Origin: an uncultured Bacilli bacterium
GTDB taxonomy: Bacteria; Bacillota_I; Bacilli_A; RF39; UBA660
Assembly (NCBI GenBank): GCA_944332635.1
Contig: CALVKI010000010.1
Span: forward strand, 21,579-85,578
DNA length: 64,000 nt
Direction: 5' to 3'
The notes below the pieces were generated by a model that was given only the letters and a program-made list of their open reading frames with translations, was not told the origin of the DNA and searched no databases. Numbering within the stretch: position 1 is the stretch's first letter; every line of letters begins with the position of its first letter. Positions 2,710 through 37,872 of the stretch are shown here, piece by piece. Made by a program: the position numbers and the translations under genes.

Positions 2710-3686
2710 ATGAAGAGAATTGTATATTTCGACAACATAAAAGGCATTTTAATATTATTTATTATTTTAGCTCATGTACTAAGTCTTTGCTCAAAATATT
2801 ATAACTACAATGATGACTTTTTTAAATTTGCTTCCTTATTTATGCTTCAATGTTTCTTTTTTATATCCGCCTATTTTTCATCTAAAAATAAAGAAAAAAA
2901 TGTAAAAGAATAATAAATTTATTAAAAACTTATCTCTTATGGCAAACTATTATTACCATTTATTATGCATATATTTTACGAATAATAGATTTTAGCTTTA
3001 ACTATTTTATACCAAGATATACATTATGGTTTCTTATTACTATGACTTTATATAATATATTTGAATTTATCTTAGAAAGAGCTGATTATAAAACAATGAT
3101 ACCACTTTCTATTGTAATAGGAATATTAGTGGGATTTATCCCTTGGATAGGTTCTGAACTATCTTTATCCAGAACTTTTGTGTTTTTTCCATTTTATGTT
3201 ATTGGTTATTATGCAAAAGAATTAAACATATTACCAAGAATAAATACAAAAAAGGTAAGACATATTACAATTATTGTATCCATATTAATTTTGATATTAA
3301 TTTTAAACTATAATGATATTTTATCAATTAAAATACTGAAAGGAAAATATAGTTATTATGATATTGGAAATATAAAACCGATTATAGCATGTATAGAACG
3401 TATATTATTTTATATGTTCAGTATTATTGTAAGTATAAGTTTTTTAAATCTAGTTCCTAGAAAAGAAGGAATATTAACTATATTAGGTAGAAATACATTA
3501 TATATATATCTAACACAGGGAATGATTTTAAAAACATTTATAACAGAAAAAATATTGTTTAATAATAAAGTTATTGGAACATTATTTTTATTTATATGTG
3601 CAATTATTATGACGATAATATTAACAAAAATGATAAAAGAGATAAAGAAAGGTAAAATTTATAGATTGGAGGAAGTAAATGGATAA
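2710..3686 (+). pseudogene. Acyltransferase-3 (OatA-like) family membrane protein, split by a -1 frameshift in an A7 tract (2894-2900)
   Basis: The N-terminal ORF (2710-2913) starts MKRIVYFDNIKGILILFIILAHV and has an FFFISAYF motif typical of acyltransferase_3. A different frame is open from 2892 and continues through 3686 as a multi-TM protein. A8 instead of A7 would restore a roughly 325-aa protein. Confidence 0.7.
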
Positions 3687-4926
3687 AAAATTTCGAGAAT
3701 TCAAAAAACAATTAAACAGAATATATACCAATAATAAAATTTATCATAAAAAAATGCAGGAAAAACATCTAATGCCTAATGATATTACTGACTGGAATGA
3801 TATAAAAAAATTACCTTTAACAACAAAAGAAGATTTACTTAAAGATTATCCTAATGGATGGAACTGTGTTGATGAAGAAAAAATTAAAATATATCATGCA
3901 TCTAGTGGAACAACTGGCAAACCATTAATTGTAGGATTAACAGAAAAAGATATATTATTACGTGAAGATACAATTATAACAAATGCTATGTTTGCAGGAA
4001 TTACAAAAAACGATATCGTTCAAATATGTTATGGTTTTGGAATGTTTACAGGAGGATTTAGCTTTTATGATGGATTAAAAAAATTGGGATGTAAAATAAT
4101 TCCAACAGGAACATTATCAACGCAAATGCAATTATTTTATATGAAAAAATTAAATCCAACGGTATTAATAACAAGTCCATCTCATGCTATGCATTTATAT
4201 GAAAAAGCAAGACAATTAGAAATCGACATAAAAAAAATACCATTAAGAATCATACGTGTAGGAAGTGAATTATTAACAGAAACAATGAGAAAGAAAATAA
4301 AAAAAGCGTGGGGTGAAAGGGTAAGTGTAACACAGGACTATGGTATGACAGAAACACTAGGTCCAGGACTAGGAATGGAATGTCAACATGAAAATGGAAT
4401 GCATTTAAATGATAGTTATTATTTTGAATTAATAGATCCTATAACTAAAAAGCCAACTACTAGCAATGTAGGAGAATTAGTAGTAACAACAATTTATAAT
4501 GAATGTTTTGGCTTGATTCGTTATAAGACAAATGATTTGGTTGAAATAAGTACAGAAAAATGTAGTTGTGGAAAGGAAAGTCCTAGAATAATTAAATTTA
4601 TAGGAAGAACGGATGATATGTTGAAAGTAAAGGGTGTAAAAGTGTTTGTAAGTCAAATAGAAGATTTTCTTTTTACCTACCCTTATTTTTCTCATCAATA
4701 TGAAATTGTTCTTTCAAATGAAAACTACAAAGATATTTTAACTATAAATATAGAAACCAAAGAAGAAGTGATTGCTGAAGTAAATAACAATAAAAAATTA
4801 GTAGAACAAGAATTTAAAAACAAATTTGGCATTACAAGTGAAATTAATATATTAGAAAGTAATACATTATCAACAAAATTGGGAAAAGTAAAAAGAGTAA
4901 AAGATTTGCGTGGAGTAAAAATATAA
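3679..4926 (+). CDS. PaaK-like adenylate-forming enzyme (phenylacetate-CoA ligase / CapK family)
   Basis: Has the AMP-binding motif YHASSGTTGKPLIV, is 415 aa, and overlaps the upstream acyltransferase by 8 nt, suggesting an operon. Confidence 0.75.
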   Translation: MDKKFREFKKQLNRIYTNNKIYHKKMQEKHLMPNDITDWNDIKKLPLTTKEDLLKDYPNGWNCVDEEKIKIYHASSGTTGKPLIVGLTEKDILLREDTIITNAMFAGITKNDIVQICYGFGMFTGGFSFYDGLKKLGCKIIPTGTLSTQMQLFYMKKLNPTVLITSPSHAMHLYEKARQLEIDIKKIPLRIIRVGSELLTETMRKKIKKAWGERVSVTQDYGMTETLGPGLGMECQHENGMHLNDSYYFELIDPITKKPTTSNVGELVVTTIYNECFGLIRYKTNDLVEISTEKCSCGKESPRIIKFIGRTDDMLKVKGVKVFVSQIEDFLFTYPYFSHQYEIVLSNENYKDILTINIETKEEVIAEVNNNKKLVEQEFKNKFGITSEINILESNTLSTKLGKVKRVKDLRGVKI

Positions 4927-31669: not shown

Positions 31670-31767
31670 ACTCTTTTTTTTTTTTTATTTAAAAAATATG
31701 AATATATTCTATTATAAAATTGAAATTTTATGATAAAATATTAATGACAGAAAAGGAAGTGACATAT

Positions 31768-33992: not shown

Positions 33993-34724
33993 ATGATAAA
34001 TTTTATAATTTGTGAAGATGAACAAGAATTATTGAGAGAATATAAAAATCAAATTGATAAATTTATGATGAAATATGACACTGAATATAAATGCCATACC
34101 TTTACATGTTATGATAAACATTGGGATTATGAAATAAAGAAGATAAAAGGTTTCAAAATATATTTATTAGATATAAAAACTGATACGGGATCTGGAATAA
34201 ATGCAGCGAGAAAAATTAGAGAAGAATATGATGATTGGGTATCAATGATTATAATGATTTCTGGATATGCAGAGTACAAATATGAAGCCTTGGGAAAGAG
34301 ACTAATGCTTGTGGATTTCATTAATAAATTAGATCACTCGGAAAAGAAGCTACAAGATGCCTTATTAATTTGTATTAAAAATTATGATAATAAATATAAT
34401 ACATTAAAATATACATATAGAAATATCGCTTATAATGTAGAATATAGAAGTATTATAAAAATAGAAAAAGAGATGGATAGCAAGAGATGCATAATACATA
34501 CAGAAGAAGACGATTATCCAATTCAAGGGACTTTAAATGATGTGTTAAAAAAATTGGATAAAAGATTTTTTAAATGTAATAGAGCAATCGCTATTAACAT
34601 AGAGCAAGTACAATACTATAATCTTAGTAAAAATGTAGCAGTTCTAAAAAATGGAGAAGAATTTAACGAAATATCAAGAAGTAGAAAAAAGGAGATGTTT
34701 AATCGTGTTAGAGGTGTTTATTAG
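33993..34724 (+). CDS. Two-component response regulator, REC + LytTR DNA-binding domain (AgrA/VirR-like)
   Basis: Begins MINFIICEDE and has the phosphoacceptor in YLLDIKTD. The C-terminal LytTR block is RCIIHTEEDDYPIQGTLNDVLKKLDKRFFKCNRAIAINIEQV. The ATG at 33993 has an RBS AAGGAGA. Confidence 0.85.
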   Translation: MINFIICEDEQELLREYKNQIDKFMMKYDTEYKCHTFTCYDKHWDYEIKKIKGFKIYLLDIKTDTGSGINAARKIREEYDDWVSMIIMISGYAEYKYEALGKRLMLVDFINKLDHSEKKLQDALLICIKNYDNKYNTLKYTYRNIAYNVEYRSIIKIEKEMDSKRCIIHTEEDDYPIQGTLNDVLKKLDKRFFKCNRAIAINIEQVQYYNLSKNVAVLKNGEEFNEISRSRKKEMFNRVRGVY

Positions 34725-36006
34725 AATCTTTTGTGCAATCATTTTAGTGTTGAGTGGAGATTATATAATAAGAATGATTGTAAATCCTTATAAAAAAATT
34801 GAAATATATAAAAAAATTATACTCATATTAGCACTAGTAATATTATTAGTAGTAACATATCAAACTGATTATAAAGGATTAAATTCAGTAATGTTTTTTA
34901 TTTTGGGAATCATAGTTTGTAAATATATTTATCAAATATCTATAGAAGAAAGTACAATAATATTTGCAATTTTAGTATTAATGATAGCATTAAGTGATAT
35001 AGTAACATCGTTGCTTTTTATGTCCAGATTTACTGTAACAGAAATTAGAACCAATGAAATAATATTTTTATTTTCTAATATAACAGTTAATGTTATAACA
35101 ATAATCATAATTAATATTAAGATAATAAGAAATTCTTTAAATAAATTTTATAATACGATTTTACAAAAGAGCTCAATAACAAATATTATATTTTTTATAT
35201 TATTAATAATAGGGTTCAGTTATTTATTATATAATATAGGAATATCTCAATTTTTTAATAAAGATTATATTATAAGTTTTACAGTCTTTATTATATTTAC
35301 AATAATCACATGTATATTCATTGAAAATCAAAATAAATATAAAAAATTAGAAGAAGAGTATGATGTACTTTTTAATTATATTCAAACATTTGAAGAATGG
35401 ATAGAAAAAGAACAACTTAATCGTCACGAATATAAAAATCAACTTGCAGTTTTGCGTTGCTTAGCAAAAGAGAAGAAGGTAAAAGAAAAAATAGATGAAA
35501 TTTTAGAAGATAACATAAATATTGAGGGACAAGCAGTAACGAATTTGAAAAATTTACCAAAAGGAGGGATTAAAGGATTAATGTACTACAAAGCTGCAAT
35601 TGCTCAAAAATTTAAAATTAATTTAACTACAGATGTATGTATTGAAGAAGATGGAATATTAAGTAAATTATCCGAAAAAAATATCAGAATTTTATGTAAA
35701 TTAATTGGAATATATTTTGATAATGCAATAGAGGCTGCTTCTGAAAGTAGAAAGAAAAATCTTACAATAGAGGTATATGAATTTAGAGAAAAAGTAAAGT
35801 TTGTATTTTCTAATACTTTTAAAAAACATAAAAATATGAAAGACAGAAATAAAAAAGGAATTTCATCAAAGGGAACAGGAAGGGGAAATGGATTGTATTT
35901 TGCTTCTAAATTAATTAAAGAAAATAAATGGTTAGAAGAAAAGCAAGAAATAATAGATAATTATTATATTCAAGAAATTATTATAAAAAAAGAACAATCT
36001 TTATAA
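34705..36006 (+). CDS. AgrC/VirS-like sensor histidine kinase (HPK10, HATPase_c_5) with polytopic N-terminal sensor
   Basis: Has 6-7 predicted TM helices, then an H-box NRHEYKNQL, an N-box LIGIYFDNAIEA and a G-box GTGRGNGLYFASKL. A GTG start at 34705 with an RBS GGAGA overlaps the end of the response regulator. Confidence 0.8.
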   Translation: MLEVFIRIFCAIILVLSGDYIIRMIVNPYKKIEIYKKIILILALVILLVVTYQTDYKGLNSVMFFILGIIVCKYIYQISIEESTIIFAILVLMIALSDIVTSLLFMSRFTVTEIRTNEIIFLFSNITVNVITIIIINIKIIRNSLNKFYNTILQKSSITNIIFFILLIIGFSYLLYNIGISQFFNKDYIISFTVFIIFTIITCIFIENQNKYKKLEEEYDVLFNYIQTFEEWIEKEQLNRHEYKNQLAVLRCLAKEKKVKEKIDEILEDNINIEGQAVTNLKNLPKGGIKGLMYYKAAIAQKFKINLTTDVCIEEDGILSKLSEKNIRILCKLIGIYFDNAIEAASESRKKNLTIEVYEFREKVKFVFSNTFKKHKNMKDRNKKGISSKGTGRGNGLYFASKLIKENKWLEEKQEIIDNYYIQEIIIKKEQSL

Positions 36007-36550
36007 AATGTTCAACAGGAGTATATTATAAATATAGTTGGTAAAATATTTACCTCTGTACAAAAATCAAATTTGATAGAATAAATATTTAAAATCAAAT
36101 ATTTGGGAATAAAATGGATATACATAAATTTAAATATTAAAAGCAATAATATTCATATTATATATAATAAACTATATTCCACATTATAAGTGTAAAATAT
36201 TAATAAATTATAGAATTTTATCTTTTATATAATAATTATTACTTTTCCTTATAGTTCGTAAATAGAACTTTCATAATAAAATCTGTAATACTAGTTTTAT
36301 TTGCTAAAATGATTTTAAGTATATAAAATTGTACAATAAGATAAAAAATACATCTTTCATAGTTATGAAAAATCAAAAAGTCCTATTAGTATTATAAAGT
36401 AATAATTAGATATATTAAAAAGGAGTTAAACATGAAACAAATCTCAAAAATATCCATAAAATATTAAATATTATTATGATAATAGAATAAATAGTCAATT
36501 AAATTTGTTTTGGATATATAAAATGTATAACTTTTTTGAGGTTATTTTTA

Positions 36551-36589
36551 ATTAAAACGAACGAAAAAGGGTGATGTAAAATCACCCTT
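36551..36589 (-). terminator. Rho-independent terminator downstream of agrD (minus strand)
   Basis: A perfect 9-bp stem AAGGGTGAT / ATCACCCTT with a 5-nt loop, followed on the minus strand by TTTTTCGTTCGTTTT. Confidence 0.65.
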
Positions 36590-36644
36590 AAATATTGATG
36601 CCTTTATAAAATTATTGCTATCAACACTATTTGTTAACGAATCT

Positions 36645-36767
36645 CTAGTCTTGAAATAAATTGTTACTAGTAGGTTCTTCCATTACAAATAAAATACACC
36701 CTAGACTAGCAGATCCTGTTACTAATATAGCAAGTGCCATCAATATCTGTGATAATCTTTTTTTCAT
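36645..36767 (-). CDS. agrD: AgrD-like autoinducing peptide precursor (40 aa), not in ORF track
   Basis: The product is MKKRLSQILMALAILVTGSASLGCILFVMEEPTSNNLFQD. It has an N-terminal amphipathic helix, a single Cys followed four residues later by the conserved E-E-P motif, and a charged tail. It lies 44 nt downstream of agrB on the same strand, with RBS AAAGGAG. Confidence 0.7.
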   Translation of the reverse strand: MKKRLSQILMALAILVTGSASLGCILFVMEEPTSNNLFQD

Positions 36768-36811
36768 ATTAATTCATACACTCCTTTATAAAAATAATAT
36801 ATTAAACGCCT

Positions 36812-37413
36812 TTAGGCGTTTAACCCTTTGTAATTATTGTATGGTTGTTTAAATAACCAATATGTGATTGGACTAACTATAATAGCTTGAACAATTAATG
36901 CTGATAAAAAAATAGCAGTCCAATATTTATCTTGTAATAAAATAATTAATAATGTATAAATGAAACCAATCATAACGGTAATAATCTTACGAATGATTCT
37001 CTTTCTTTTATTTGAAAGAGGTCTTTTTTTGTATCCGCTGGTGCAAAAAACAAATAATGTAAAATGCAAATTGCACAAATGACACATATAGAAAAATTAG
37101 ATAATTGTATATGTAACAATAAAAATGGTATTACAATAAAGTTAAAAGTAGAAAACAATAAGCACTGATAACTTTTCTCAGCATGAAATCCGAAACCGGT
37201 ATAACGAATGACATTAAAACAAATGATAACCAAAATAAGTTCTCTTAACATATCTAAAATAATTGCAAGAATAATTAATATTACCATTTTTGAAATAGTA
37301 AGATAAAGTCCTTCTAAACCGTATTTTATCCTCTTTTTATCGTAGTCAGAAATGGATTGGTATTTACTAATAAAATTCATGCTACAATCTAAAAATAATC
37401 GTTTCATAAACAA
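36812..37413 (-). pseudogene. agrB: AgrB family AIP-processing membrane peptidase, -1 frameshift in an A7 tract (plus-strand T7 at 37024-37030)
   Basis: The N-terminal frame (37413-36970) contains IRYTGFGFHAEKSYQC and FAPADTKK, matching the AgrB catalytic His/Cys region and the APAATKKKPI motif. The second frame (37087-36812) continues KKRPLSNKRKRIIRKIITVMIGF, like the AgrB C-terminus. A8 would fuse the two into a roughly 198-aa protein. Confidence 0.8.
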
Positions 37414-37653
37414 TCACCATAACCTCTAACAAAACAATTATACAATTAAACAAATATTAGAACAAAAAAATCCATAAATTGTAAAAAAAAATAAATTCTT
37501 TGTCGAATTTTGTCGAAAATTAGGAAAATATTACCAAATAAGTTAATCATATAATCAATTAGAGGAATTTTTATCAAAATAATGATAAAAATTGGTATTA
37601 TTAAAACACCAAGAGGCATGGTATGTAATTGGTAGAAATGAGGTGTAAGCAAG

Positions 37654-37872
37654 ATGGTTGGACGCGTAAAGTGGTTCAATAATGATAAAGGATACGGCTT
37701 TATAGAATACAAAGAAAATGAAGATGTATTTGTTCATTACTCTGCTATAGAGTTAGAGGGTTATAAGACTTTATCAGAAGGACAACTAGTAGAATTTAAA
37801 TTGGTAGAAACAAGCAAAGGATACCAAGCTTTAAATGTAAAATTAGTTAAAGAAGCTGCTACTGTTAAATAG
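37654..37872 (+). CDS. cspA: Cold-shock protein (CspA family)
   Basis: Begins [19 protein letters not shown] and has RNP motifs. An RBS GAGGTG is 8 nt upstream. Confidence 0.9.

What the first reader, a model, noticed from the sequence alone, without database searches (positions are those of the whole stretch)
36645..36767. AgrD precursor with conserved Cys-x4-EEP architecture and novel predicted AIP sequence
The translation is MKKRLSQILMALAILVTGSASLGCILFVMEEPTSNNLFQD. It has an amphipathic N-terminal leader, a single Cys, and the invariant Glu-Glu-Pro located four residues after the Cys. This mirrors C. perfringens AgrD (...SACLWFTHQPEEP...), where AgrB cleaves to leave a five-membered thiolactone (CLWFT). 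By analogy the ring here would be C-I-L-F-V, possibly with a short N-terminal tail (G or LG). At 40 aa the ORF is below the 60-aa cutoff of the ORF track.
Basis: partly seen in the sequence, partly recalled or inferred. Interest (0 to 1): 0.8.

Follow-up and report, generated by a model that had tools for sequence, protein, structure and literature searches.

The report
AgrD quorum-sensing peptide precursor gene
The 40-codon gene is a real quorum-sensing peptide precursor (AgrD type) from an uncultured gut bacterium, but its ring is probably six residues (CILFVM) rather than five, its leader looks like a secretion or lipoprotein signal, and the gene for its processing enzyme is frameshifted in this assembly.

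Summary
It lies 44 nt downstream of agrB. An AgrC-like kinase and a LytTR regulator converge on it. The same about-40-aa ORF follows agrB in 77 of 80 related species-level gut genomes (Candidatus Faecimonas and "uncultured Bacilli/Tenericutes"). The other three contigs end before it.

The family pattern is MKKR-hydrophobic-ATGAAS[LM]G-C-x5-[DE]EP-x7-D. Cys, Glu and Pro are held by purifying selection, and the five residues after Cys are hypervariable. The kinase sensor domain diverges in step with them (26-54% identity, against 73-79% for the kinase part). A leave-one-out family HMM finds the window ORF at E 2e-20.

- The spacing is Cys-x5-EEP, not Cys-x4.
- The leader is a uniformly hydrophobic, signal-peptide or lipobox-like segment, not an amphipathic helix.
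- The register matches Clostridium acetobutylicum AgrD (C-x5-YEPK, six-residue ring). It also fits S. aureus, where AgrB cleaves immediately before the D33-E34 pair. The likely macrocycle is therefore C-I-L-F-V-M.

In this window agrB is split by a 1-nt shortfall in an A-run (A7, against A8 in three other assemblies). This is either an assembly artefact or a real slip. Overall this is a solid but fairly ordinary agr locus, in an AgrD subfamily that the searched literature does not describe.

The parts
36645..36767 (-). agrD: 40-aa precursor MKKRLSQILMALAILVTGSASLG-C-ILFVM-EEP-TSNNLFQD. Residues 1-23 form a signal-peptide-like leader, C24 is the cyclisation Cys, 25-29 are the hypervariable core, 30-32 are the [DE]EP motif, and 33-40 are the follower.
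   Evidence: Translation. Leave-one-out family HMM, E 2.2e-20. Orthologous ORF in 77 of 80 related loci. Codon-level selection pattern.
36781..36787 (-). Shine-Dalgarno-like AAAGGAG, 13 nt upstream of the agrD ATG. A 2-codon mini-ORF (ATG AAT TAA, 36769-36777) lies in between.
   Evidence: Read from the sequence. AGGAG(G) precedes the orthologous start codon in almost all relatives.
36567..36589 (-). Intrinsic-terminator-like hairpin and T-run that ends the agrBD transcript.
   Evidence: Terminator scan: 4 found in the region against 0.6 expected from shuffles.
36801..36824 (-). Conserved hairpin (10-bp stem here) that spans the agrB stop codon, with a T-rich tail, between agrB and agrD.
   Evidence: The stem is retained in relatives, with changes on both sides in 3 of 5 consensus pairs. 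Its function is not established.
36812..37407 (-). agrB (PF04647), split in this assembly into two overlapping ORFs (36970-37413 and 36812-37087). Catalytic His75 and Cys82 lie upstream of the break.
   Evidence: Pfam AgrB: E 2.9e-24 for profile positions 5-140 and 5.4e-5 for positions 117-180. NCBIfam AgrB-like hit. The intact 198-200 aa version is present in L001, L002 and L004. Invariant R, G, H and C. Hydrophobic-segment map.
37024..37030 (-). A7 homopolymer on the coding strand. This is the frameshift site in agrB, after residue 128; A8 restores ...PADTKKRPLS...
   Evidence: All three indels between the window and L001 are one-A shortfalls in A-runs of the window.
37499..37518 (-). Tandem direct repeat TTTCGACAAA-ATTCGACAAA (10-bp period). 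Candidate operator of the agrBD promoter.
   Evidence: Invariant in 17 of 17 aligned close relatives. Unique in the window. At most 4 mismatches in 55 of 80 loci, always 97-118 nt upstream of agrB.
37437..37442 (-). Conserved TATAAT, a candidate -10 box for agrBD, with a weak -35.
   Evidence: Conserved column block in the upstream alignment. The assignment as a -10 box is an inference.
34705..36006 (+). AgrC-like histidine kinase (433 aa), convergent with agrBD. It has about 7 hydrophobic segments in residues 1-207 and an H-box HEYKN at residue 241.
   Evidence: NCBIfam AgrC, E 7.2e-13, below its cut-off. PF14501 is recorded for the identical gene in L001. Hydropathy and H-box. Sensor domain 26-54% identical against 73-79% for the kinase part.
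33993..34724 (+). LytTR-family response regulator (243 aa from the ATG; the ORF opens at TTG 33972).
   Evidence: Pfam LytTR, E 1.5e-13; Response_reg, E 2e-5. NCBIfam AgrA, E 1.6e-13, below its cut-off. Syntenic in all related loci that are long enough.

Best explanation
The ORF encodes a genuine AgrD-type precursor of a cyclic autoinducing peptide. It belongs to a distinct, well conserved subfamily found in uncultured gut Bacilli (Candidatus Faecimonas and relatives, labelled 'Tenericutes/Mycoplasma sp. CAG' in several records).

Proposed mechanism (inferred unless stated):
1. agrB and agrD are transcribed together from a weak promoter that lies downstream of a conserved TTCGACA-N3-TTCGACA repeat.
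2. The hydrophobic leader places the 40-aa peptide in the membrane.
3. AgrB (His75/Cys82) cuts between Met29 and Glu30, immediately before the conserved acidic pair [DE]-E followed by Pro.
4. AgrB transfers the acyl group to Cys24. This gives a six-residue macrocycle, C-I-L-F-V-M.
5. The leader is then removed at or near the invariant G|C junction. S at -3 and G at -1 fit a signal peptidase site.
6. A tail-less thiolactone would be expected to rearrange by an S-to-N acyl shift into a head-to-tail cyclic hexapeptide, as shown for clostridial AIPs.
7. The peptide is sensed by the polytopic sensor domain of the convergent AgrC-like kinase, which signals through the LytTR regulator.

Shown here: the ORF, its family, the conservation pattern, the gene context, and the co-divergence of the sensor.
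Inferred: the cleavage sites, the ring size, the final chemistry and the regulatory loop.

In this particular assembly agrB carries a 1-nt frameshift in an A-run. The peptide may therefore be unprocessed in this strain, unless the frameshift is an assembly error or is bypassed by slippage.
For: ORF and translation.

Context. agrB (PF04647) ends 44 nt upstream, and the LytTR regulator and AgrC-like kinase are adjacent.

Conservation. 77 of 80 related species-level loci carry the ORF in the same place, and the other three contigs end before it. A-4, G-1, C0, E+7 and P+8 are invariant in 78 sequences. Positions +1, +3, +4 and +5 have 2.5-3.2 bits of entropy.

Codon changes across pairs of 48 orthologues:
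- Cys: 46.7% synonymous, 0% amino-acid-changing.
- [DE]EP: 32.9% against 9.7%.
- Core: 7.2% against 74%.

Family membership. The leave-one-out HMM gives E 2.2e-20. TIGR04223 (AgrD family) matches 51 of 77 orthologues, best E 9.6e-8.

Synteny. The order hpf-csp | agrBD | HK-RR-GT4 is conserved. The kinase sensor domain is hypervariable and the kinase core is conserved.

Ring register. hhalign aligns CILFVMEEPTSNNLF with C. acetobutylicum CVLVTLYEPKMPEEL without gaps (E 0.0013). The six-residue R6T0 peptide is the synthetic AIP used as the active signal in that species (PMC10301443; PMC4916163). S. aureus AgrB cuts M32|D33, and D33 and E34 are essential (PMC10196373). AgrB residues R70, G75, H77 and C84 are invariant in this family (numbering of P0002).

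Tail-less thiolactones rearrange to lactams in clostridia (PMC8251862).
Against: The window peptide itself gets no hit from Pfam AgrD or from TIGR04223, even at E 10.

The sampled subfamily members that hit TIGR04223 score below its 19-bit cut-off (12-18 bits).

The leader is unlike the amphipathic leaders of characterised AgrDs.

Ring size rests on motif register alone. Most characterised AIPs have five-residue rings (PMC4916163, PMC10482373), and position +5 is as variable as the ring positions, which does not discriminate between five and six.

The same Cys sits in a lipobox-like context, so it could be lipidated instead of cyclised (PMC13056109).

agrB is interrupted in this window.

The operator repeat has a 10-bp period, not the 9-bp repeats spaced by 12 bp of S. 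aureus AgrA sites (PMC10482373).

There are no expression or mass-spectrometry data.
Confidence: 0.75

Rival explanations
1. AgrB cleaves after Val28 to give a five-residue thiolactone, C-I-L-F-V, possibly with a G or LG tail. Met29 is the first residue of the follower.
For: Five-residue rings are by far the commonest among characterised AIPs (PMC4916163; PMC10482373). With a five-residue ring, the conserved acidic residue falls at P2', which is the position of the essential E34 in S. aureus. A hydrophobic residue then falls near P9' (L37), similar to the essential L41 in S. aureus.
Against: The invariant E (+7) and P (+8) and the frequent K (+9) are in exactly the register of the C-x5-YEPK class, whose active AIP has a six-residue ring. 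In S. aureus the cut lies directly before the D-E pair, which corresponds here to the Met29|Glu30 bond. The C. perfringens analogy is out of register.
Confidence: 0.25
2. The peptide is handled by the lipoprotein pathway. Lgt attaches diacylglycerol to Cys24 and signal peptidase II removes residues 1-23. This leaves a membrane-anchored 17-aa lipopeptide. AgrB might then trim its C-terminus, or lipidation and cyclisation might be competing fates.
For: 75 of 78 family members satisfy a PROSITE-like lipoprotein signal rule. Mollicute lipoprotein signal models hit weakly: NF038029 hits 15 members (best E 0.0017), and NF038030, TIGR04547 and Pfam LPAM_1 also hit. G-1 and C0 are invariant. PMC13056109 reports that a subset of AIP precursors carry canonical SPII signals and leaves open whether they are lipidated.
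Against: The motif is S-[LMV]-G-C, without the usual Leu at -3. 47 of 78 members have only this one Cys, so lipidation would abolish thiolactone formation. Despite that, agrB, with intact catalytic residues, accompanies the ORF in every locus that extends far enough (catalytic residues checked in 13 representative AgrB proteins). The [DE]EP follower motif is under purifying selection. The hypervariable core and the co-diverging sensor are typical of a diffusible ligand. The presence of Lgt and Lsp in this genome was not tested.
Confidence: 0.1
3. In this strain the locus is a decaying or phase-off agr system. The agrB frameshift is real, so AgrD is made but not processed and the predicted AIP is not produced.
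For: The window has A7 where three independent assemblies of the same species have A8. The break removes the last two hydrophobic segments of AgrB. Only 2 of 146 homopolymer runs of at least 7 nt in the window split an ORF, so the assembly is not riddled with such errors. Frameshift inactivation of agr recurs in S. aureus (title and abstract of PMC8768832).
Against: All three indels against the 99.93%-identical contig L001 are one-A shortfalls in long A-runs, two of them intergenic. That pattern looks like systematic homopolymer under-calling. A second gene is split at another A7 run. The rest of the locus is identical and intact. A -1 slip on A_AAA_AAA, or transcriptional slippage, would restore the wild-type protein (inference from established knowledge of slippery A-runs).
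Confidence: 0.35
4. The ORF is a chance open frame in AT-rich DNA and is not a gene.
For: Short ORFs are abundant here: 75 ORFs of at least 30 aa lie in 13 kb. No Pfam or NCBIfam model hits this exact peptide.
Against: Conserved position, length and motif in 77 related genomes. A synonymous-only pattern at the Cys and EP codons. HMM E 2.2e-20. An SD sequence and a terminator.
Confidence: 0.01

Closest known systems
Clostridium acetobutylicum AgrD (CA_C0079) and the clostridial C-x5-YEPK group (six-residue-ring AIP, R6T0)
   Same: The distance from Cys to the conserved E-P-(K) is identical, and the core plus follower align over 15 ungapped columns. A Gly lies close before the Cys. agrBD and agrCA are separate transcription units (PMC10301443). 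A tail-less AIP is expected.
   Different: The leader there is a long, hydrophilic, amphipathic segment of about 32 aa (mean KD -0.82). Here it is a 23-aa hydrophobic signal-peptide-like segment. The position after the ring is Tyr there and Asp or Glu here. No LanM-like gene follows the locus here. The follower is shorter here (11 aa against 15 aa). The host is a small-genome, uncultured gut lineage.
Staphylococcus aureus agrBDCA (AgrD-I; AgrB C84/H77)
   Same: An AgrB with invariant R, G, H and C catalytic-site residues. A Cys-containing precursor with an acidic pair directly after the presumed scissile bond (PMC10196373). A hypervariable core together with a hypervariable receptor sensor domain. 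A LytTR regulator and an HPK10-like kinase with the H-box near residue 240 (PMC10482373).
   Different: The spacing is C-x5, not C-x4. There is no variable exocyclic tail, because the residues before Cys are conserved. The leader is signal-peptide-like. The kinase and regulator converge on agrBD and are not in the same operon. The candidate operator is a 10-bp-period repeat, not 9-bp repeats 12 bp apart. No RNAIII-like divergent transcript was detected.
Clostridium perfringens AgrD
   Different: The EEP motifs are therefore not homologous positions and cannot set the ring size.
'SPII-signal-containing AIP precursors' noted in PMC13056109 (2026)
   Same: AgrD-like precursors with a lipoprotein-type signal peptide. 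Many have a single Cys, so lipidation and thiolactone formation would compete for it. This is exactly the situation in this family.
   Different: That paper gives only a preliminary bioinformatic remark. Its supplementary sequences are not held here, so I could not verify whether this family is among them.

Membership tests
AgrD (NCBIfam TIGR04223 / Pfam PF05931) | The sequence matches the curated family model above its cut-off. | tested here: not met
   The window peptide gets no hit at E<=1 or at E<=10. Among its 77 orthologues, 51 match TIGR04223 at E<=10 (best 9.6e-8), and the sampled ones score 12-18 bits against a 19-bit cut-off. PF05931 matches 1 of 77.
AgrD (NCBIfam TIGR04223 / Pfam PF05931) | A small ORF (about 40-55 aa) encoded immediately downstream of agrB on the same strand. 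| tested here: met
   44 nt downstream of the agrB stop. The arrangement is the same in 77 of 80 related loci.
AgrD (NCBIfam TIGR04223 / Pfam PF05931) | A conserved Cys (or Ser), then a short variable core, then a conserved acidic and Pro-containing follower recognised by AgrB. | tested here: met
   C-x5-[DE]EP. C, E and P are invariant in 78 sequences and the core is hypervariable.
AgrD (NCBIfam TIGR04223 / Pfam PF05931) | An N-terminal amphipathic leader helix. | tested here: not met
   The leader is uniformly hydrophobic and signal-peptide-like: mean KD 1.69 and helical moment 0.82, against -0.82 and 1.25 for C. acetobutylicum.
AgrD (NCBIfam TIGR04223 / Pfam PF05931) | Processed to a secreted (thio)lactone or lactam macrocycle. 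| not testable with these tools
   Needs mass spectrometry.
AgrB (Pfam PF04647) | HMM match and catalytic His/Cys. | tested here: met
   E 2.9e-24 and 5.4e-5 for the two fragments. His75 and Cys82 are present. R, G, H and C are invariant in the family.
AgrB (Pfam PF04647) | An intact reading frame. | tested here: not met
   Frameshift at the A7 run 37024-37030. The gene is intact (A8) in L001, L002 and L004.
AgrC/AgrA-type two-component system | A LytTR DNA-binding response regulator. | tested here: met
   PF04397, E 1.5e-13. NCBIfam AgrA, E 1.6e-13, far below the equivalog cut-off.
AgrC/AgrA-type two-component system | An HPK10-type kinase with a polytopic sensor domain. | tested here: inconclusive
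   NCBIfam AgrC, E 7.2e-13, covers nearly the whole model but is far below its cut-off. PF14501 is on record for the identical L001 gene, but my Pfam scan did not list it. About 7 hydrophobic segments and an HEYKN H-box at residue 241.
AgrC/AgrA-type two-component system | The receptor sensor domain co-diverges with the peptide core. | tested here: met
   Sensor domain 26-54% identical, against 73-79% for the cytoplasmic part, in 11 close relatives that all have different cores.
AgrC/AgrA-type two-component system | A single agrBDCA operon with LytTR sites (9-bp repeats 12 bp apart) at its promoter. | tested here: not met
   HK-RR converge on agrBD. The conserved upstream repeat has a 10-bp period. 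The S. aureus layout is from PMC10482373.
Six-residue-ring AIP class (C. acetobutylicum type) | Cys followed by five residues, then x-E-P-K. | tested here: met
   Ungapped hhalign alignment, E 0.0013. Comparison sequences are from PMC10301443 Table S2.
Six-residue-ring AIP class (C. acetobutylicum type) | A LanM-like gene immediately downstream of the agr cluster. | tested here: not met
   The neighbours are csp/hpf/secA on one side and GT4/mreB on the other.
Bacterial lipoprotein precursor (SPII/lipobox) | A basic n-region, a hydrophobic h-region and a lipobox ending in Cys. | tested here: inconclusive
   75 of 78 members meet a PROSITE-like rule, but the box is S-[LMV]-G-C, without Leu at -3. 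Weak hits to mollicute lipoprotein signal models.
Bacterial lipoprotein precursor (SPII/lipobox) | Lgt and Lsp present in the genome, and Cys lipidated. | not tested
   Neither gene was looked for beyond this window. Lipidation needs experiments.

The most novel reading that the evidence does not exclude
In this subfamily one invariant Cys is both the +1 residue of a lipoprotein or Sec-type signal-peptide cleavage site and the nucleophile for AgrB-mediated cyclisation. The most novel reading not excluded is that the general secretion or lipoprotein machinery (signal peptidase I or II, with or without Lgt) has replaced the dedicated leader protease (MroQ or SpsB type). Cleavage exactly at G|C would then release an N-terminal-Cys thiolactone. 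This would self-convert into a head-to-tail cyclic hexapeptide. Alternatively, lipidation and cyclisation could be competing fates that give a cell-bound lipopeptide and a diffusible signal from one gene. The system would be universal and syntenic in a small-genome, uncultured gut lineage.
Probability: 0.15. Interest if true: 0.7.

Novelty: new variant of a known kind. Interest (0 to 1): 0.42.

Why it matters
agr-type peptide signalling is well understood in staphylococci, listeriae and clostridia. This locus shows it as a core, syntenic feature of a widespread uncultured gut lineage (Candidatus Faecimonas and relatives; hosts include humans, ruminants, rabbits, mice and chickens). No paper in the searchable library links these organisms to agr.

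The subfamily gives a clean test case for a question left open in 2026: what happens when an AIP precursor carries a lipoprotein-type signal whose Cys is also the cyclisation residue (PMC13056109).

The practical consequence for this finding is concrete. Anyone synthesising the signal should make the six-residue macrocycle CILFVM, as both thiolactone and lactam, and not only CILFV. They should also use an intact agrB (the A8 allele) for heterologous production.

The 78 distinct cores and the co-diverging sensors offer a natural library of ligand-receptor pairs. Otherwise the finding is an expected kind of gene in an expected context.

Tried and rejected
- A word-index protein search with the peptide alone found only its exact copy. 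Relatives appeared only through agrB-anchored loci and then a profile search.
- Pfam, NCBIfam and PDB searches with the peptide or with the family profile gave nothing useful beyond TIGR04223.
Ring size therefore rests on motif register.
- Searching papers for AgrD sequence strings found nothing, because the sequences are in figures. The supplements of PMC11953309 and PMC13056109 are not held. I could not check whether this family is among their AIP families or SPII-type AIPs.
- The 638-nt spacer between agrD and the kinase was examined for an RNAIII-like RNA or a gene. It has 18% GC, no credible ORF, no Rfam hit and no conservation in relatives.
- The isolated TTTCGACAA match at 2727-2735 lies inside a coding sequence and is taken as chance.
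- The plus-strand ORF 36661-36852, antisense to agrD, was dismissed because the substitution pattern fits the minus-strand frame.
- I looked for other lipobox-bearing ORFs in the window to calibrate the organism's lipobox. Apart from one implausible TTG-start ORF (63736, minus strand), agrD is the only match.
Full report
**1. The observation**

Window 36645-36767 is closed by stops on the plus strand.
- The ORF starts at ATG 36767, immediately after an in-frame stop.
- AAAGGAG lies upstream, with GGAG 13 nt from the ATG.
- A terminator-like hairpin follows at 36567-36589.

Short ORFs are common in this 28% GC DNA: 75 ORFs of at least 30 aa lie in 13 kb. The ORF alone therefore proves nothing.

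Three statements in the finding are inaccurate.
- Five residues (ILFVM), not four, separate Cys24 from E30-E31-P32.
- The leader is not amphipathic. It has a basic MKKR, an unbroken hydrophobic run and a small-residue S-L-G before Cys. Mean hydropathy is 1.69 and the helical moment is 0.82.

**2. Context**

Two overlapping ORFs lie directly upstream on the same strand: 36970-37413 and 36812-37087. They match the N- and C-terminal parts of Pfam AgrB, E 2.9e-24 for profile positions 5-140 and E 5.4e-5 for positions 117-180. NCBIfam gives the same picture.

They are joined by a -1 shift at an A7 run (37024-37030). With eight A's the frame reads ...FAPADTKKRPLSNKRKR...

Two genes on the plus strand converge on agrBD:
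- a LytTR response regulator (33993-34724; PF04397, E 1.5e-13);
- a 433-aa kinase (34705-36006) that matches NCBIfam AgrC over nearly the whole model (E 7.2e-13, far below the equivalog cut-off). It has about seven hydrophobic segments in its first 207 residues and an HEYKN H-box at residue 241.

On the other side lie csp, hpf and secA.

**3. Relatives**

A word-index search with the peptide found only an exact copy (P0001, held by NCBI, ENA and Logan). That copy sits on contigs 99.7-100% identical to the window (L001-L005). In L001, L002 and L004 agrB is intact (198-207 aa as called) with A8.

The repaired AgrB has 595 relatives. The 80%-identity tier is named Candidatus Faecimonas intestinavium or 'Bacilli bacterium'.

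A scan of one genome per species returned 80 loci. They come from uncultured gut Bacilli, 'Tenericutes' and 'Mycoplasma sp. CAG:877', from human, goat, sheep, rabbit, mouse, deer and chicken samples.
- 77 of the 80 loci carry an ORF of about 40 aa (38-41 aa; one copy cut by the contig end) whose start lies about 35-75 nt downstream of the aligned end of agrB. It starts with ATG, GTG or TTG and is preceded by AGGAG(G).
- The three exceptions are contigs that end at most about 125 nt after agrB.
- The gene order hpf-csp | agrB-agrD | HK-RR-GT4 is conserved throughout.
- A profile of the 77 peptides finds 536 database proteins, all about 40 aa and none named by any source.

**4. Anatomy of the family**

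All 78 sequences are different.

| Position | Content |
|---|---|
| -4, -1, 0, +7, +8 | A, G, C, E, P; all invariant |
| +6 | D in 68, E in 9, G in 1 |
| C-terminal residue | D in 67 of 68 |
| +2 | W in 59 of 78 (L in the window) |
| +1, +3, +4, +5 | 2.5-3.2 bits of entropy |

Codon comparisons over 48 forty-codon orthologues:

| Region | Synonymous-only differences | Amino-acid-changing differences |
|---|---|---|
| Cys codon | 46.7% | 0% |
| [DE]EP | 32.9% | 9.7% |
| Five core codons | 7.2% | 74% |

This pattern shows a translated gene with a constrained scaffold and a diversifying core.

An HMM built without the window sequence scores the window ORF at 68 bits, E 2.2e-20. The next best of 1048 open frames in the window has E = 1.

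The kinase shows the matching pattern. Against 11 close relatives, its sensor domain is 26-54% identical and its cytoplasmic part 73-79% identical.

**5. Is it an AgrD?**

The window peptide itself matches neither Pfam AgrD nor TIGR04223.
- 51 of its 77 orthologues match TIGR04223 at E<=10, the best at 9.6e-8.
- The sampled members score 12-18 bits against a 19-bit cut-off. C. acetobutylicum AgrD scores 38.8 bits.

The defining features are therefore mixed.
- Met: position after agrB; a Cys followed by a variable core and a conserved acidic/Pro follower; a hypervariable core with a co-diverging receptor.
- Not met: a curated-model hit for this exact sequence; an amphipathic leader.

I file it as an AgrD-type precursor of a divergent subfamily.

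**6. Ring size**

In S. aureus, AgrB Cys84 cuts AgrD-I between M32 and D33, and D33 and E34 are essential for cleavage (PMC10196373). The acidic pair thus directly follows the scissile bond. In the present family the [DE]-E pair sits at +6/+7. This places the cut after +5 and gives a ring of six residues.

Independent evidence comes from C. acetobutylicum. Its AgrD is ...GKCVLVTLYEPKMPEELLKENIDK, and the six-residue R6T0 peptide is used as the active AIP. Related clostridia share C-x5-YEPK (PMC10301443 text and supplement; PMC4916163). hhalign aligns CILFVMEEPTSNNLF with CVLVTLYEPKMPEEL over 15 ungapped columns (E 0.0013).

Five-residue rings are the norm. A five-residue reading would put the acidic residue at P2', also a critical position in S. 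aureus. Position +5 is as variable as the ring positions, which does not discriminate.

**7. The leader and the lipobox question**

- 75 of 78 members satisfy a PROSITE-like lipoprotein signal rule, although the box is S-[LMV]-G-C and lacks the usual Leu at -3.
- Mollicute lipoprotein signal models hit weakly: NF038029 in 15 members, best E 0.0017.
- S at -3 and G at -1 also fit a signal peptidase I site. This is established knowledge of the (-3,-1) rule and was not tested here.
- 47 of 78 members have only this one Cys.

A 2026 paper notes that a subset of AIP precursors carry canonical SPII signals, and that for those with one Cys it is unclear whether lipidation occurs or is blocked by thiolactone formation (PMC13056109). 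I could not check whether this family is in their set.

Four observations bear on which fate is likelier:
- agrB accompanies the ORF in every locus that extends far enough;
- the follower motif is under purifying selection;
- the core is hypervariable;
- the sensor domain co-diverges with the core.

I therefore consider cyclisation the main fate. Leader removal at or near G|C would give a tail-less product. By analogy with clostridial AIPs, that product would rearrange to a homodetic cyclopeptide (PMC8251862).

**8. The agrB frameshift**

Over 12.1 kb the window differs from L001 by six substitutions and three indels. All three indels are a missing A in a run of at least seven A's, and two of them are intergenic.

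Of 146 homopolymer runs of at least 7 nt in the window, only two split an ORF: agrB, and an acyltransferase-3-like gene at 2894-2900.

The pattern is compatible with homopolymer under-calling or with real slippage, and I cannot decide without reads. The truncated product would keep His75 and Cys82 but lose the last two hydrophobic segments. A -1 slip on A_AAA_AAA, or transcriptional slippage, would restore the wild-type sequence (inference).

**9. Regulation**

A tandem repeat, TTTCGACAAA-ATTCGACAAA (37499-37518, minus strand), is invariant in 17 of 17 aligned relatives. It is unique in the window. It is present with at most 4 mismatches in 55 of 80 loci, always 97-118 nt upstream of agrB.

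A conserved TATAAT lies about 60 nt downstream of it.

The 10-bp period of the repeat differs from the S. aureus AgrA layout of 9-bp repeats 12 bp apart (PMC10482373). Which protein binds it is unknown.

A hairpin with a T-rich tail spans the agrB stop codon (36801-36824). It is conserved, with changes on both sides in 3 of 5 consensus pairs. It may set the agrB:agrD transcript ratio, but this was not tested.

**10. Novelty and verdict**

No paper in the searchable library links agr or AgrD with RF39 (RF39 is the order to which I recall these genomes being assigned, which was not checked here). A gut-microbiome AIP mining paper does not mention these organisms in its main text (PMC11953309).

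The system is a recognisable agr system. The peptide is a new sequence in a subfamily with three distinctive traits: a signal-peptide-like leader fused directly to the cyclisation Cys, C-x5 spacing, and a convergent two-component system.

I rate it a new variant of a known kind, of moderate interest (0.42). Its structural prediction and several descriptive details do not.

Noticed in passing
window 37024-37030 (-), within agrB 36812-37407: agrB is split by a one-base shortfall in an A-run: A7 here, against A8 in three other assemblies of the same species. A -1 slip on A_AAA_AAA would restore the normal protein.
   Followed up: yes
window 2710-2913 and 3042-3686 (+), A7 run at 2894-2900: An acyltransferase-3-like gene (MKRIVYFDNIKGILILFIILAHV...) seems to be split at another A7 run. 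Adding one A merges the open frame from 264 to 332 codons.
   Followed up: partly
window 36801-36824 (-): A terminator-like hairpin with the agrB stop codon in its loop and a T-rich tail lies between agrB and agrD. The stem is conserved in relatives, with compensatory changes. It may explain the conserved ...L-N C-terminus of AgrB.
   Followed up: partly
window 37499-37518 (-): Tandem direct repeat TTTCGACAAA-ATTCGACAAA at a fixed distance (about 100 nt) upstream of agrB in 55 of 80 related loci. It occurs once in the 64-kb window. Its 10-bp period is unlike the classical LytTR site spacing.
   Followed up: partly
window 36007-36644: A 638-nt non-coding spacer with 18% GC lies between the convergent 3' ends of agrD and the kinase gene. 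It is not conserved in relatives (some have about 77 nt there) and has no Rfam match or credible ORF.
   Followed up: partly
window 36769-36787 (-): The Shine-Dalgarno GGAG is 13 nt from the agrD ATG, and a two-codon mini-ORF (ATG AAT TAA) sits between them. The stop of the mini-ORF is one base before the agrD ATG. Nearest relatives have similarly long spacing (13-15 nt) but no mini-ORF.
   Followed up: no
window 31682-31689, 38497, 41202: Compared with the 99.93%-identical contig L001, the window has a cluster of five substitutions that creates a long A-run (31682-31689). It also has two further one-A shortfalls in intergenic A-runs. These may be low-quality homopolymer calls.
   Followed up: partly
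L043 (agrD about 66 nt downstream of agrB, which ends at 4379): A distant relative (AgrB about 50% identical) has the core CILFVA, which shares the first five residues with the window's CILFVM. If the ring had five residues the two species would make the same signal.
   Followed up: no
window 37721-37798 (+): A sub-threshold Rfam match to the cspA thermoregulator (34.5 bits against a gathering score of 78) lies inside the csp coding region (ORF 37654-37872). It probably reflects csp sequence conservation.
   Followed up: no
L004 about 880-900: One Logan contig of the same species has an extra T just before the agrB stop. This changes the AgrB C-terminus and the 5' arm of the intergenic hairpin. 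It may be an assembly error.
   Followed up: no
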